64,000 nt of DNA from an uncultured delta proteobacterium (GCA_963848135.1 CAWKCK010000017.1:372001-436000); one strand, 5' to 3'. Positions 1,982-7,900 are shown, numbered from the stretch's first letter. Numbers: made by a program.

Positions 1982-4900
1982 CTACACCATTGATTCGTCT
2001 TATGATCGTTTTTTATCTAAACGCGCGCCGTCTTGCACCTGGCGGCTGACCTATCGGTTTCTAAGGCTAAAGGCGTTTTGCCGCCCGCATTATTTCGGCT
2101 TCTTGGCCCCGTATTTGGAACGTCCCTGTCGCCGATCAGCAACTCCGAGAGTGTCCAAGGTACCCCTGACGATGTGGTATCTGACACCAGGAAGGTCTTT
2201 AACGCGACCACCACGTACCAGGACCACCGAATGCTCCTGAAGGTTATGACCGATACCTGGAATGTAAGCGGTCACCTCGATACCTGTCGTCAGCCGCACA
2301 CGCGCGACCTTCCGCAGCGCTGAATTCGGTTTCTTTGGTGTCGAGGTGTACACGCGTGTGCAGACCCCTCTTTTCTGGGGCGCACCTTTAAGTGCCGGGG
2401 TGTTGGTCTTCTTCTTGGCCCGTTTTCTTCCCTTACGTACTAATTGGTTGATGGTCGGCATATCTACCTCTTGTTTATTGTCTGGAATCCGCTACTTTTC
2501 GAGGGATGGTAAAAGCGCAATTTGTATACAGTCGCCTATCCGATGTCAAGTTTTTTCTTTAATGATATGGCGGTTTTTGATGTGGACGGCTACGCTCTAT
2601 CTCGATCTTCAAAAAAGCAGCGCTCCTTGTTTGCCAATTCGTCAAAACTTACGCCAGTCGATTAGATTTCATCGACAACTTCAACCCCCACATCATGATA
2701 TGTGGCGACACCGGTCCCAGCGGGGATTAGGCGCCCCATAATGACGTTCTCCTTCAAACCCTTCAAGAAATCTACCGCGCCGGAAATGGATGCGTCGGTA
2801 AGCACCTTGGTGGTTTCCTGAAAGGAAGCCGCGGAGATGAAGCTGTCGGTACTGAGCGATGCTTTGGTAATGCCAAGGATGAGCGGTTCGGCAACCGCCG
2901 GTTTTCCGCCTTGCATGATAACAGCCCGGTTCTCCTCGTCAAATCGTACCCGGTCCACCTGTTCTTCCGTGATAAATTCCGTATCGCCGACCTCAACGAC
3001 TTTGACCCGTCGCATCATTTGGCGCACAATGACCTCGATATGTTTGTCGTTAATACGTACTCCCTGCAGGCGGTAAACCTCCTGGACTTCGTCCACCAGG
3101 TACCGCGCGAGGTCGACCTCGCCTTTTATATTGAGAATATCCTGGGGTACGGCCGAACCGCCGATCAGCGGTTCACCAGCGCGCACGTAATCGCCTTCGA
3201 TGACGTTGATGTGTTTTCCCCTGGGAATTAGGTAGTCTTTCGTCTCACCAACACCGTCAACAGGGCTGATGGTAACCTTCTGTTTGCCTTTCTTTGTGCC
3301 CTTGGCGATCGAAACATAACCGTCTATTGCACTCAGAATAGCCACTTCCTTCGGTTTCCTTACTTCAAACAGCTCGGCCACCCGCGGCAAACCACCTGTG
3401 ATATCCTTAGTTTTGGTGGTTGCTCGCGGCAACTTGGCCACAATGTCACCGGCCTTTACGGCGTCGCCTTCTTCAACCAGCATAATGGCATCAATCGGCA
3501 GCATGTAACGGGCCATGGCGTTCGACGCCGGCAGTTTAACTGTTTTTCCGTCCTCACCCTTAATAGAGATCCGCGGCCGTTCCTCGGTCGTCTTAGATTC
3601 GATAACTGTTTGGCTTGACTTACCCGTCACGGGATCGACCTTTTCCTGCATGGTCTTTCCGCGGATGATGTCGCCAAACTTCACGTTACCGTTGACTTCA
3701 GTAAGGATTGGTGTTGTGAAAGGATCCCAGGTCGCCAGAAGATCGCCCGCTTTCACCAGCCCGCCATCCTGGACGAGAATGTGAGCGCCGTAAATAACCG
3801 GAAAGCTTTCCAGTTCACGGCCCTTCTCGTTGACGATCGTAAACTTACCCCCCCGGCGATTCATGACCACTTCCTGCCCATCGGAATTTTTGGCAATACG
3901 CAGATCGACGAATTTTATCTTGCCATCGACCCGGGAACGGATATCAGCCTGTTCAACGCGCCGACTGGCTGTACCGCCGATGTGAAAGGTCCGCATCGTC
4001 AGCTGGGTTCCGGGTTCACCGATTGACTGCGCAGCCAGGATACCGACAGCCTGGCCATGTTCCACAGTCTGACCGTGGGCCAGATCGCGTCCGTAACAGT
4101 GAGCACATACGCCGGTCTTCGTCCTGCAGGTCAAAACGGAGCGGATTTTGATGTTTGTCAGGCCGGCATCTTCAATCCGTTGAACGGTGGGTTCATCGAT
4201 TAGGTGATTGGCCGGTACAATGACCTCCTCGGTGAAAGGATCAATGACATCTTCTGCAGTCACCCGCCCCAACACACGTTCCCCGATACGCTGAATCACT
4301 TCACCACCTTCCATCAACGGCCCGACCTCAACGCCCATGCGGGTTCCGCAGTCATCCTCCATGACAATGCAGTCCTGTGCGACGTCTGCGAGACGACGGG
4401 TGAGATAACCCGAGTTGGCTGTTTTCAGCGCCGTATCTGCCAAACCTTTGCGGGCACCGTGGGTCGAAATAAAATACTGCAACACGGACAGCCCTTCCCT
4501 GAAGTTGGAGGTAATCGGCGTCTCGATGATCTCTCCTGAAGGTTTGGCCATCAGACCCCGCATGCCGGCAAGCTGACGCATCTGGTCTTTGCTGCCCCGG
4601 GCACCGGAATCGGCCATCATGAATATAGGATTAAAGCTTTCGGAAATGATGGGATCCCCGTTCTTGTCCATAATCGGGTTGCCCGCAGAATCGTTCACCG
4701 GCGCCATCCGCATAGCCTCCATCATTGCGTTGGCCACATCATCAGTGGCTTTGGCCCAGATATCAACGACTTTGTTGTATTTTTCGCCCTGGGTAATCAG
4801 GCCCTCGGTATACTGCCGGCCGATTTCCTCCACCTGCTTCTCGGCCTCATTCAAAAGCTTCCACTTTGAATCGGGTGTGATCATGGCATCGATTGAAATC

Positions 4901-7900
4901 GACAAGCCACCTTCCGTCGAATAGCGATAACCGGTATTTTTGAGACGGTCGGACAGAATGACCGTCGCTTTTGGACCGAGATTGCGGTAAACATAATCCA
5001 CAAGATTCCGCAGCGTTTTCTTATCCATCACACGGTTGATCACGTCAAAGGGTATCGGCGGTTGTCTCTTCAAAACTTTAAAAATGTGATGCTTCCCATC
5101 AGCCGTGAGAACATTGCTAACGTCACCGATATTCAGGTAGTAAACCTTGTCAGCGGTATCTTCGTCGATATTGAACGTGTTGACAAACTCATCCTTCCTC
5201 ACGAGGCCGATATTGCCGTCGTTAACCTTGTCGGGACTCTGGGAGTGGGTCGAGACCATTTCAGTGAAGTCCGCCCCCTCTTTGATCTTGCGATGGATGC
5301 TTCTTGCTTCCTGCAAGTCTTTCACCATGATGTGGCAGAGGTCAAAGATATCCTCCTCCGGAATGATTTCCCACAACAGAATTCGCCCGACGGTGGTGTC
5401 GACGCGTTTGCCGTCCATGCGCACGGAAATCTCGGCATGTAATTCGACATTGCCGTCGTCGTAGGCAACTCTGACCTCTTCGGCATTGGCAAAATACATA
5501 CCGTCACCCTTGCGTCCCGGTATGCCCCTGGTCATGTAGTAAAGCCCCAATACGATGTCCTGACTGGGCACGATGATCGGCGACCCATTGGCTGGCGACA
5601 GGATGTTGTTGCTGGAGAGCATCAACACCCGCGCTTCGATCTGGGCTTCCACGGAGAGCGGCACGTGCACGGCCATCTGGTCGCCGTCAAAGTCGGCATT
5701 GAATGCGGTACACACCAGTGGATGCAACTGAATCGCCTTGCCTTCAATAAGGATCGGCTCGAAAGCCTGGATGCCGAGCCGATGAAGCGTCGGCGCCCGG
5801 TTCAGCATCACCGGATACTCTTTGACAACTTCATCCAACGTGTCCCAAACCTCCGGAATCTCACGTTCCACCATTTTTTTGGCACTCTTGACGGTGGACA
5901 CCAGCCCTTTCTGCTCAAGCCGGTAGTATACAAAGGGCTTGAAAAGCTCCAGCGCCATGGCCTTGGGTAATCCGCACTGGTGCAACCGCAAGTCCGGTCC
6001 GACTGTAATGACCGTCCGGCCGGAATAGTCGACCCGCTTACCCAGCAGGTTCTGTCTGAAACGCCCCTGTTTGCCCTTCAGCGTGTCACTCAGAGATTTG
6101 AGTGGCCGCTTATTGGTACCGGTTATTACCCGTCCGTGGCGACCGTTATCAAAGAGAACGTCGACAGATTCCTGGAGCATTCTTTTTTCGTTACGGACGA
6201 TAATATCGGGCGCCTTCAAGTCGATCAGCCGCTTCAATCGGTTGTTGCGATTGATGACCCGCCGGTAGAGATCGTTAAGATCGGATGTGGCGAAACGACC
6301 GCCTTCCAGCGGCACCAATGGCCTGAGATCCGGGGGTAGCACCGGTATGACATCCATAATCATCCAAATCGGGTTGACACCGGATTTACGAAACGCATCA
6401 ACGATTTTCAGGCGTTTGGCAAGTTTTTGGCGTTTGGCCACAGAACCGGTTTCCCTGATATCACGACGCAACTCTTTATAAATCTCATCCAGGTCCAGAT
6501 CGGCCAGCATTTCTTTAACGGCTTCGGCGCCGATACCGGCTTTGAATTTGTCACCGTATTTGTCGAGAGCATCGTGGTAATTTTCATCCGTCAGCAACTG
6601 GCCTCGCGTGAGATCGGTTTCCTTCGGATCGATAACGATATAACTGTCAAAATAAAGGACCTTTTCCATATTTTTAAGGGTCAGATCCAGCAGGTTCCCG
6701 ATTTTACTGGGAAGGCTTTTAAGGAACCAAATATGTGAAACCGGAGTTGCCAACTCGATGTGGGCCATGCGTTCACGACGAACTTTGGACTGAATGACTT
6801 CAACACCGCATTTTTCGCAAATTACACCGCGGTGTTTCATGCGTTTGTATTTACCGCAATTACACTCATAATCCTTGGTTGGACCAAATATTTTAGCACA
6901 GAAAAGCCCGTCGCGTTCAGGCTTGAATGTCCGATAGTTGATGGTTTCAGGCTTTTTTATTTCTCCGAAAGACCACTTTCGGATTTGCTCCGGAGACGCC
7001 AGGGAAATCTTAATTCCAGTGTATTTCCTAGGGTCTGTCGGTTTAGCGAAAAAATCGTATAATGTATCCATCATGGTTTAATTCCCTTTCACCTGTGATA
7101 TGGGATTCTTGCGGCCACTTCCTGGAATTGAAGGTGACGATCAACTCTTTCCTTCGATAAGGTCGATATCGAGTCCCAAAGCCTGGAGTTCTTTGGTCAT
7201 CACTCTGAAGGACTCTGGAATACCTGGTTCCAGAACATTCTGGCCTTTAACGATCTTTTCGTACATTCGCGTTCTGCCGGCCATGTCATCCGATTTGACG
7301 GTCAGAAACTCCTGCAGCGCAAAGGCCGCTCCATAAGCTTCCATCGCCCAGACTTCCATCTCGCCGAGCCGCTGACCGCCGAACTGTGCCTTGCCACCGA
7401 GCGGTTGTTGCGTCACCAGTGAGTATGGGCCAATGGACCGGGCATGAATCTTGTCATCCACCAAATGGTGCAGTTTCAAGACGTACATGGTGCCGACGGT
7501 AATTCTTTCCTTAAATGCCTCCCCGGTACGACCATCGTAGAGGGTTGTCTGCCCGGTCGTGCTTACCTCTGCTTCTTGCAGCAGGTTTTTGATTTCATCC
7601 TCTTTGGCGCCGTCAAATACCGGCGTCGCCATATGCACGCCGTCTTTGTACTGAATGGCAAAGGTCATCAACTCATCGTCACTGAAATCTTTAATCGATG
7701 CCTGAGCCTCGACGTCTTCGAAGATTTTTTTCAGTTTGCCTCTCAACGCTTTGAATTTTTGTTCTTCAATTAACACACTCAATTGATCACCGAGAGTTTT
7801 GGCGGCCCGCCCAAGGTGAATTTCGAGAATCTGACCGACGTTCATCCGCGAAGGGACGCCCAAGGGGTTCAGAACCATGTCGACCGGCTTGCCATCCTTG

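What a model noticed while it worked through the whole genome (the two positions that open the first line are those of the whole stretch)
2662..7074. Parvulin prolyl isomerase domain inserted in RNA polymerase beta-prime
The rpoC gene (g03901, 1470 aa) carries a ~100-residue parvulin-type peptidyl-prolyl isomerase domain inserted inside Rpb1 domain 3 of the beta-prime subunit, and the same insert is present in nearly all sampled Desulfobacterales but not in other Desulfobacterota. Boldest reading: these bacteria have a built-in prolyl isomerase/chaperone module on RNA polymerase itself, a bacterial analogue of Pin1/Ess1 acting at the transcription machinery (on RNAP partners such as sigma or Nus factors, or on nascent co-transcriptionally translated proteins). 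New would be an enzyme-type lineage-specific insertion in a bacterial RNAP.
Evidence so far: Pfam Rotamase/Rotamase_3 hit at aa 588-670 (E 2.7e-6) splitting RNA_pol_Rpb1_3 (hmm 1-82 at aa 490-575; hmm 112-160 at aa 681-729) (pfam.tsv, calls 19, 168). AF2 model of aa 516-731 with a 21-sequence alignment: mean pLDDT 84.7, insert blocks 89-97; Foldseek: PrsA PPIase 1zk6 TMt 0.83 rmsd 2.3, NmPin parvulin 2m08 TMt 0.78, the flanks match beta-prime chains. The 216-aa query: 119 of 121 Desulfobacterales genomes matched; by my count of the listing about 105 cover it end to end in one frame on ORFs of about 1460-1600 aa; 5 genomes (G007, G020, G045, G070, G082) match only the flanks (about 1-60 and 158-216), ORFs 1073-1437 aa, i.e. 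no insert. Insert alone (96 aa): in 49 Desulfobacterota geno [...]
(Added by a program. Inside this text positions count along the whole contig: contig position 372,001 is position 1 of the stretch shown here. "Call 12" and the like, gene names such as g00115 and contig names such as C1 are that model's own, and its searches are not shown. The text may have been shortened before it was handed on; [...] marks where a part breaks off. The agent that wrote the report below was given it as the finding of a first reader that could run no searches.)

Follow-up and report, generated by a model that had tools for sequence, protein, structure and literature searches.

The report
Parvulin-fold domain inserted in RNA polymerase
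The largest subunit of this bacterium's RNA polymerase carries an extra 98-residue domain with the fold of a prolyl isomerase, shared by almost its whole order of sulfate reducers, but the domain looks more like a docking module than a working enzyme.

Summary
rpoC (window 2662-7074, minus strand, 1470 aa) carries a 98-residue insert at aa 575-672 that splits Rpb1 domain 3.

The insert is a parvulin by three tests:
- Pfam Rotamase scores 28.2 bits (cut-off 21.7).
- A profile of 57 inserts matches the PrsA parvulin at E 1.5e-15.
- The AF2 model (pLDDT 90.4) aligns to PrsA with Z 15.8, rmsd 1.6 Å.

It sits after E. coli β' residue ~586, the surface loop where cyanobacteria split β'.

Distribution:
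- 133 of 151 genomes of the order have it, 7 lack it, and in 11 the region was not found.
- 0 of 372 matched genomes from the rest of the phylum have it.
- A β' tree suggests one gain near the base of the order and at least 3 later losses.
- The insert is under purifying selection (dN/dS 0.05-0.10).

The enzyme reading is weak. The catalytic Cys/Asp position is Ser in the window, and among 58 inserts it is never Cys and is Asp in only 5. Each His is missing in 13-16 of 58. No Pin1-type features are present.

Best reading: a non-catalytic or weakly catalytic peptide-docking module, probably near the secondary channel. I found no description of it in print, but Lane & Darst 2010 and Iyer 2004 could not be read.

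The parts
2662..7074 (-). rpoC, RNA polymerase β' subunit, 1470 aa; the only copy found in the genome
   Evidence: ORF and translation. TIGR02386 scores 1764 bits. Pfam finds Rpb1 domains 1-5. The genome gives one match to the 232-aa query. The gene lies in the usual order rplK-rplA-rplJ-rplL-rpoB-rpoC-rpsL-rpsG on the minus strand; neighbour names are my reading of the translations.
5059..5352 (-). parvulin-fold insert, aa 575-672 (98 residues)
   Evidence: Pfam Rotamase scores 34.3 bits on the insert alone. The insert profile matches PrsA 1zk6 at E 1.5e-15. The AF2 model has the order strand, three helices, strand, two helices, two strands (β-α3-β-α2-β2) at model residues 61-156. VIA-align gives Z 15.8 to PrsA 6vj6_A. 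Coordinates were checked.
5353..5607 (-). N-terminal flank, aa 490-574: first part of Rpb1 domain 3 with the bacterial hairpin element, ending in the helix [13 protein letters not shown]
   Evidence: Pfam Rpb1_3 hmm 1-82. phmmer aligns it to E. coli β' 499-585. VIA-align matches E. coli β' from residue 515.
4882..5058 (-). C-terminal flank, aa 673-731: second part of Rpb1 domain 3
   Evidence: Aligns to Xanthomonas β' 588-645 and to residues 11-62 of cyanobacterial β'2 (8syi_Z).
5332..5334 (-). His581, first His of the parvulin dual-His motif
   Evidence: Aligned to PpiC His8. His in 42 of 58 inserts and in at least 90% of 24 typical inserts.
5236..5238 (-). Ser613, at the position of the catalytic Cys/Asp (PpiC Cys40, PrsA Asp)
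   Evidence: Alignment to 1jns and 1zk6. Cys in 0 and Asp in 5 of 58 inserts.
5230..5232 (-). Asp615, nearly invariant Asp two residues after the Cys/Asp position
   Evidence: Conserved in at least 90% of 24 typical inserts and 57% of the 58-insert set. Its role is unknown.
5086..5088 (-). His663, second His of the dual-His motif
   Evidence: Aligned to the GYHII motif of PpiC and PrsA. His in 45 of 58 inserts.

Best explanation
The housekeeping β' subunit of this order carries a lineage-specific insertion domain of parvulin fold. It is joined by two short linkers into a solvent-exposed loop of the pore-1 domain (Rpb1 domain 3). This is the same loop where cyanobacteria and plastids split β' into two proteins.

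Shown: the insert exists, it has the parvulin fold, it is restricted to one order, it is under purifying selection, and its canonical catalytic residues are degenerate.

Inferred: it works mainly as a peptide-docking or scaffolding module and not as an efficient isomerase. On this reading it uses the conserved hydrophobic parvulin pocket (Phe630, Phe634, the two His) to hold a Pro-containing or hydrophobic segment. That segment could belong to another protein or to RNAP itself, at the face of the enzyme beside the rim helices and the secondary channel. It adds a regulatory or stabilising contact that is useful but dispensable, since several lineages have lost it.
For: - Fold and homology.
- Surface site: the flanks superpose on E. 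coli β' 515-639 with rmsd 1.4-2.1 Å, so the insert disturbs nothing. The cyanobacterial γ and β'2 ends bracket the same loop. Shen et al. [quoted passage not shown]
- pLDDT dips to 83-84 at both junctions and pTM is only 0.66 against pLDDT 90, which fits a separately hinged domain.
- Neighbourhood: in spinach PEP the β' 'blade' and an insertion near the β' C terminus, with the β'' rim helix, hold PAP8 'near the secondary channel' (PMC11561172, passages read). So this face is used for docking partners elsewhere.
- Selection: dN/dS of the insert is 0.047-0.099 in the 4 of 8 close pairs where dS could be computed, against 0.029-0.042 in the flanks (all 8 pairs).
- Core and pocket residues are kept: F56 is invariant and E55 and F91 are at least 90% conserved in 24 typical inserts.
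- Catalytic decay: Cys/Asp position Cys 0 of 58, Asp 5 of 58; first His 42 of 58; second His 45 of 58.
- Dispensable: 7 of 140 assessable genomes lack it, and 4 of these are nested in an 11-sequence clade (support 0.988) among insert-bearers.
- Mostly acidic (median pI 4.93; 46 of 57 below 6), so nucleic-acid binding is unlikely.
- From recall, not from any call: non-catalytic parvulin domains that bind peptides are known in SurA (P1 domain) and PpiD.
Against: - No partner is known and none was found.
- The position on RNAP is inferred from sequence equivalence and from two papers on other enzymes. No model of the whole enzyme could be inspected.
- In the 24 typical inserts both His are at least 90% conserved and an Asp two residues after the Cys/Asp position is at least 90% conserved. 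An unusual but working active site is therefore not excluded.
- Ser at the nucleophile position lowers Pin1 activity but does not abolish it (recalled).
- GreA is present in 145 of 151 genomes whether or not the insert is there, so there is no sign of interplay with that secondary-channel factor.
Confidence: 0.5

Rival explanations
1. RNAP-tethered active prolyl isomerase or foldase. The domain would catalyse cis-trans isomerisation of prolines in RNAP-associated factors or in RNAP itself.
For: - True parvulin fold with the hydrophobic pocket kept.
- Both His are at least 90% conserved, and Asp615 is nearly invariant, in 24 typical inserts.
- Strong purifying selection.
- In this genome the other three Pfam Rotamase matches are in proteins with hydrophobic N-terminal signal or anchor segments. 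The insert is therefore the only apparently cytoplasmic parvulin found.
- In E. coli the free cytoplasmic parvulin PpiC co-purifies with NusG, Rho, SuhB and RpoA (PMC7353009, passages read).
Against: - The Cys/Asp position is Ser in the window; among 58 inserts it is never Cys and is Asp in only 5.
- The residue matching PpiC Phe81, whose F81A change abolished activity, is Gly in the window and polar in relatives (my reading of the alignment).
- His is lost in 13-16 of 58 inserts.
- At least 3 secondary losses.
- No Pin1-type loop or WW domain.
Confidence: 0.25
2. Passenger domain. A parvulin gene fragment was inserted once into a permissive loop and is now kept mainly because it folds harmlessly, perhaps adding only stability. 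It would have no specific partner or activity.
For: - The site tolerates a chain break in cyanobacteria.
- There are repeated losses, internal deletions (L015) and acidic low-complexity expansions (L016, L029).
- The insert's dN is 2.3-5 times that of the flanks.
- No column is invariant across 57 inserts.
Against: - Kept in frame in 133 of 140 assessable genomes spread over about 80 families.
- dN/dS is 0.05-0.10.
- Surface-exposed polar positions such as E55 and D41 are at least 90% conserved in typical inserts. A pure filler would not need this.
Confidence: 0.2
3. Artefact: misassembly, an intein or mobile element, or a chance Pfam hit.
For: The single-sequence Pfam score is modest (28 bits).
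Against: - The same in-frame insert is found in 133 genomes and in many independent metagenome fragments.
- Profile E-value 1.5e-15 and structural Z 15.8.
- No intein or transposase family is among the Pfam hits.
Confidence: 0.01

Closest known systems
Lineage-specific insertion domains of bacterial RNAP β/β' (E. coli β' SI3, Thermus β' non-conserved domain, cyanobacterial SI3)
   Same: A whole folded domain is spliced into a surface loop of a large subunit. It is restricted to a lineage, leaves the shared regions intact, and is dispensable in relatives.
   Different: In the 2024 survey PMC11515920 (abstract and sections 2.4 and 2.6 read, plus word searches of the text and of the one supplement held), the inserts are HABAS (sandwich-barrel hybrid), BEAN or sLC folds at seven locations. 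The words parvulin, PPIase, rotamase and Desulfo do not occur. Here the fold is a parvulin. The site is about 15 residues past their β'-bD4 (type-4 coordinates 518-571).
Parvulin domains inserted in chaperones (PrsA, SurA, PpiD)
   Same: These are the closest sequence and structure relatives: PrsA 1zk6 at E 1.5e-15, 6vj6_A at Z 15.8, SurA at E 3e-13. In those proteins the parvulin is also an inserted module whose two ends lie together. Some copies (SurA P1, PpiD) are non-catalytic binders (recalled, not from a call).
   Different: Those proteins are extracytoplasmic folding factors. Here the host is the cytoplasmic RNA polymerase, and the insert has an extra helix (model residues 123-130) and Ser at the Cys/Asp position.
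E. coli PpiC (Par10), the free cytoplasmic parvulin
   Same: Single-domain parvulin of about 92 residues; matches the insert at E 7e-5. [quoted passage not shown]
   Different: PpiC has Cys40 and Phe81; the insert has Ser613 and Gly at those positions. PpiC is a free protein. No free PpiC-like gene was found in this genome with PF00639.
Pin1/Ess1 acting on the RNA polymerase II CTD
   Same: A parvulin-fold protein working at a transcription machine.
   Different: Pin1/Ess1 is a separate protein with a WW domain and a basic phosphate-binding loop (recalled). The insert has neither, and bacterial β' has no CTD repeats. The resemblance is in fold only.
β' split site of cyanobacteria and plastids, and β'-SI1 of spinach PEP
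   Same: Same loop or immediate neighbourhood of β'. It is a surface loop (PMC10120043). In PEP a 37-residue insertion near the β' C terminus, together with the 'blade', holds PAP5 and PAP8 next to the rim helices (PMC11561172).
   Different: Those are a chain break and a disordered loop that binds accessory proteins. They are not a folded enzyme-family domain.

Membership tests
Parvulin / PpiC-type PPIase domain (Pfam PF00639, PF13616) | Sequence match above the curated Pfam threshold | tested here: met
   28.2 bits against 21.7 in the whole protein and 34.3 bits for the insert alone. 47 of 57 inserts match at E <= 0.01.
Parvulin / PpiC-type PPIase domain (Pfam PF00639, PF13616) | Parvulin fold: four-stranded sheet with the order β-α3-β-α-β2 | tested here: met
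   The AF2 secondary-structure order matches, with insert blocks at pLDDT 90-97. 6vj6_A gives Z 15.8, rmsd 1.6 Å, 94 residues aligned; 3gpk_A gives Z 15.1 with 100 of 108 aligned. There is one extra helix.
Parvulin / PpiC-type PPIase domain (Pfam PF00639, PF13616) | Dual-histidine motif | tested here: met
   His581 and His663 are present in the window. Across 58 inserts the two His are present in 42 and 45, so the feature is not universal in the insert family.
Parvulin / PpiC-type PPIase domain (Pfam PF00639, PF13616) | Catalytic Cys or Asp (Pin1 Cys113, PpiC Cys40, PrsA Asp) | tested here: not met
   Ser613 in the window. Cys in 0 and Asp in 5 of 58 inserts. The Pin1 numbering is recalled.
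Parvulin / PpiC-type PPIase domain (Pfam PF00639, PF13616) | Measured prolyl isomerase activity | not testable with these tools
   Needs an enzyme assay.
Pin1/Ess1 subfamily (phospho-specific parvulins) | N-terminal WW domain | tested here: not met
   No WW family among the Pfam hits at E <= 0.1.
Pin1/Ess1 subfamily (phospho-specific parvulins) | Basic phosphate-binding loop between β1 and α1 | tested here: not met
   In the model β1 (61-69) runs into α1 (72-83) with no loop between them. Pin1 chains align to the insert profile only from position 16. The identity of the Pin1 loop residues is recalled.
Bacterial RNAP lineage-specific insertion domains | A folded domain inserted in a surface loop between shared regions of β or β', present only in some lineages | tested here: met
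Bacterial RNAP lineage-specific insertion domains | Fold is one of the described classes (SBHM/HABAS, BBM2/BEAN, sLC) | tested here: not met
   The fold is a parvulin. The classes are as listed in PMC11515920.

The most novel reading that the evidence does not exclude
These sulfate reducers have built a working prolyl isomerase or chaperone into RNA polymerase itself, beside the secondary channel. It would use an unusual active site (two His plus Ser613 and Asp615) and would remodel proline switches in secondary-channel factors or in mobile parts of RNAP. That would make it the first enzyme-family domain found as an integral part of a bacterial RNAP.
Probability: 0.2. Interest if true: 0.85.

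Novelty: new variant of a known kind. Interest (0 to 1): 0.55.

Why it matters
Lineage-specific inserts are how bacterial RNA polymerases acquire new contacts and controls. The classes surveyed in print are a few β-rich folds. A parvulin at the β' split-site loop, kept under purifying selection across a large, environmentally important order, adds a new fold class and a new decorated surface.

It also offers a natural experiment, because close relatives with and without the insert exist. If the domain binds a partner, it points to an unknown regulator of transcription in sulfate reducers. If it is active, it would link prolyl isomerisation directly to bacterial transcription.

Tried and rejected
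- Complex prediction of the insert (alignment A2) with the β' funnel and rim-helix segment aa 732-865 (alignment A4): score 0.00, no verdict. It says nothing either way.
- GreA complementarity: PF03449 is present in 145 of 151 genomes of the order, including all 7 insert-less ones. There is no pattern.
- Representative library search with the insert: 382 hits at E <= 0.001. The best 150 contain no hit longer than 1077 aa, so no full-length β'; five top hits I inspected are β' fragments, the rest by length are free parvulin proteins. It cannot show whether other phyla have the insert.
- Word-indexed protein search: only 10 close relatives, the named ones all labelled Desulfobacterales bacterium.
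- The search for related loci with alignments A2 and A3 failed because no stretch was conserved enough. The single-protein scans found rpoC inserts only in records titled Desulfobacterales, Desulfobacteraceae, Desulfococcus, Deltaproteobacteria or delta proteobacterium. The six hits from other taxa that I inspected are free parvulin genes.
- Nucleic-acid binding was rejected on charge.
- Literature searches for a prior description found none. One search was uninformative.
- Lane & Darst 2010a and 2010b are not held. Iyer et al. 2004 has no PMC id in the reference list seen, so I did not request it.
- The exact position of the domain on the enzyme could not be computed, because no tool returns coordinates.

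
Full report
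**1. What is there**

The frame at 2662-7074 is open only on the minus strand and encodes a 1470-aa protein. It is the β' subunit of RNA polymerase: TIGR02386 scores 1764 bits and Pfam finds Rpb1 domains 1-5. By my reading of the translations, it lies in the usual rplKAJL-rpoB-rpoC-rpsL-rpsG arrangement. The genome gives a single match to a 232-aa piece of it.

Pfam also reports Rotamase PF00639 at aa 588-667 (28.2 bits, cut-off 21.7) and Rotamase_3 (27.4 bits). Rpb1_3 is found in two stretches, the first covering hmm 1-82 at aa 490-575. NCBIfam gives weak PrsA and PpiC matches over aa 576-685.

**2. Boundaries and site**

phmmer of aa 500-731 against solved structures aligns query 1-74 to E. 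coli β' 499-585 and query 175-232 to Xanthomonas β' 588-645. About 98 residues (aa 575-672, window 5059-5352 minus strand; checked) therefore have no counterpart.

The cyanobacterial γ chains end shortly after the N-terminal flank. The cyanobacterial β'2 chains begin 5-11 residues before the C-terminal flank match (8syi_Z 11-62, 8h3v_B 5-55). The insert thus sits in the loop where cyanobacteria and plastids split β'.

Shen et al. [quoted passage not shown] In the domain scheme of PMC11515920 the site is about 15 residues after β'-bD4 (type-4 coordinates 518-571).

**3. Fold**

- The insert alone matches PrsA (6vj4, E 8e-6) and E. coli PpiC (1jns, E 7e-5).
- A profile of 57 inserts matches PrsA 1zk6 at E 1.5e-15, SurA at 3e-13, and Pin1 only at about 1e-4 and only from profile position 16.
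- 47 of 57 inserts match Pfam Rotamase on their own.
- AF2 on aa 516-731 with 57 sequences gives mean pLDDT 90.4 and pTM 0.66, with dips to 83-84 at the two junctions.
- Its secondary-structure order is the parvulin one plus one extra helix at model residues 123-130.
- Foldseek finds PrsA structures and β' chains, all at probability 1.00.
- VIA-align gives PrsA 6vj6_A Z 15.8 (rmsd 1.6 Å, 94 residues, model 58-157), 6vj4 Z 15.5 and 3gpk_A Z 15.1. The flanks fit E. coli β' 515-639 at Z 15-16, rmsd 1.4-2.1 Å.

**4. Distribution**

With the 105-aa insert query, 147 of 151 genomes of the order match. In 116 of them (my count of the listing) the match lies in a frame of 732-1604 aa, that is, in rpoC.

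I searched the other 35 with the 232-aa query:
- 15 cover it end to end in one rpoC frame.
- G115 covers it in two pieces of one 1517-aa frame.
- G001 has it in a broken gene.
- 7 (G007, G020, G045, G070, G082, G132, G138) match the flanks only, with 0-66 nt between them.
- In 11 no rpoC region was found.

So 133 of 151 have an insert, 7 lack it, and 11 are unknown.

In a phylum sample (401 genomes at least 85% complete), all 15 genomes of the order are covered across insert and flanks (14 from query residue 1, G118 from residue 29) at E <= 1.2e-47. Of the 386 others, 372 match with best E between 1.4e-27 and 9.5e-13, and 14 do not match. Every listed row from these genomes covers only query 1-72 to 1-80. 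Only 150 of 664 rows were shown.

I read 20 such loci residue by residue: 10 taken from near the top of the listing and 10 chosen for the longest β' frames. All 20 have 28-30 residues between the anchors, against 128 in the window.

Public names of close relatives are Desulfobacterales, Desulfobacteraceae, Desulfococcus sp. or 'delta proteobacterium' MAGs.

**5. History**

I built a FastTree (LG+gamma) tree from 992 β' columns with the insert columns removed. It holds 75 sequences: 58 insert-bearing, 7 insert-less and 10 outgroups. L028 (broken gene) and L037-L042 (not rpoC) were left out.
- G138+G082 and then G007 branch at the base of the order (supports 0.864 and 0.966).
- The other four insert-less sequences are nested in one 11-sequence clade (support 0.988). 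Their sisters are insert-bearers (supports 0.983, 0.866 and 0.709).
- The simplest history is one gain after the basal families split off, followed by at least three losses.
- That same clade holds the most decayed inserts. G045 keeps a 24-residue remnant.

This is one tree from one method, and the deep supports are moderate.

**6. Is it an enzyme?**

I aligned 58 inserts. The set is deliberately rich in divergent ones: 12 best hits, 16 weak ones, 20 mid-range and 10 weakest. Results:
- The first His is His in 42.
- The second His is His in 45.
- The Cys/Asp position is Ser 28, Gly 6, Ala 6, Asp 5, Thr 4, Asn 2, Glu 2, Lys 2, Tyr 1, gap 2, and Cys 0.
- The hydrophobic pocket positions are kept (Phe 47 and Phe 48 of 58).

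In the 24 typical inserts, both His, Glu55 and Asp41 (Asp615, two residues after the Cys/Asp position) are at least 90% conserved, and Phe56 is invariant.

The residue matching PpiC Phe81 is Gly in the window (my reading). The F81A change in PpiC abolished activity (PMC7353009).

The canonical active site is therefore not conserved. An unconventional one cannot be excluded from sequence.

Other properties:
- The domain is acidic: median pI 4.93, and 46 of 57 are below 6.
- Against eight close relatives, dN/dS of the insert is 0.047-0.099 in the four pairs where dS was computable (it was saturated in the other four). The flanks give 0.029-0.042. The insert's dN is 2.3-5 times that of the flanks.

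**7. Context in the cell**

The genome has three other Rotamase matches, in frames of 328, 635 and 345 aa. All three begin with hydrophobic signal or anchor segments. The β' insert is therefore the only apparently cytoplasmic parvulin found with that model.

In E. coli the free parvulin PpiC is reported to co-purify with NusG, Rho, SuhB and RpoA. This is a lead for partners, not evidence here.

In the spinach plastid polymerase, the β' 'blade' and a 37-residue insertion near the β' C terminus, together with the β'' rim helix, hold PAP8, which 'sits near the secondary channel' (PMC11561172). By homology the parvulin probably lies on that face. This step is inferred.

GreA is present in 145 of 151 genomes irrespective of the insert.

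**8. Verdict**

The 'built-in isomerase, Pin1 analogue' reading is only partly supported.

My estimates:
- 0.5: a hinged, surface-exposed parvulin-fold docking or scaffolding module beside the secondary channel.
- 0.25: an active PPIase.
- 0.2: a largely functionless passenger.

**Prior description**

Searches found none. The 2024 survey PMC11515920 lists only HABAS, BEAN and sLC inserts and does not contain the words parvulin, PPIase, rotamase or Desulfo, in the text or in the one supplement held. Precomputed Pfam annotation of public proteins already carries PF00639 on these β' sequences, so the architecture is visible in databases.

Lane & Darst 2010 could not be read, and Iyer 2004 was not available to me. 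Either may list the insertion.

Noticed in passing
window 218-1436 and 15418-16636: An exact 1219-nt repeat carries two identical tuf (EF-Tu) genes on the minus strand. The copy at 220-1413 follows rpsG (1508-1978) directly, with no fusA between them, unlike the usual rpsL-rpsG-fusA-tuf order.
   Followed up: partly
L036 (G045), the segment between the TTVGR and VNxxMxK anchors: An insert-less relative keeps a 24-residue acidic remnant at the insertion site. L032 and L033 keep about 4 extra residues. These look like scars of deletion.
   Followed up: partly
L016 (G042) and L029 (G115): These inserts carry a 13-29-residue acidic, low-complexity expansion inside the parvulin loop that normally holds the catalytic Cys/Asp.
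   Followed up: no
L028 (G001): rpoC is broken into frames of 236 and 187 aa within the insert in this assembly (contamination 6%). This could be a frameshift or an assembly error.
   Followed up: no
P0003 (430 aa) and P0005 (1039 aa): These free proteins carry 4 and 5 tandem parvulin domains with canonical Cys or Asp. They were among the best non-rpoC matches to the insert.
   Followed up: no
L099:1201-1446: A free 291-aa PrsA-like protein of an uncultured bacterium is 44% identical to the insert over 87 residues and has Glu at the Cys/Asp position. It is a possible relative of the donor gene.
   Followed up: no
L083 and L084 (G000 contigs C3 and C17): Two of the genome's three extracytoplasmic parvulin proteins (the 328- and 635-aa frames) have Gly at the Cys/Asp position, preceded by Glu (motif S-E-G-P). 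A missing Cys/Asp is therefore not peculiar to the β' insert in this organism. No motif of this kind was found in the third (L085).
   Followed up: no
window 7141-11331, minus strand: The rpoB frame as listed starts at a TTG and gives 1396 aa. The real start is probably the ATG about 30 codons downstream ([10 protein letters not shown]...).
   Followed up: no
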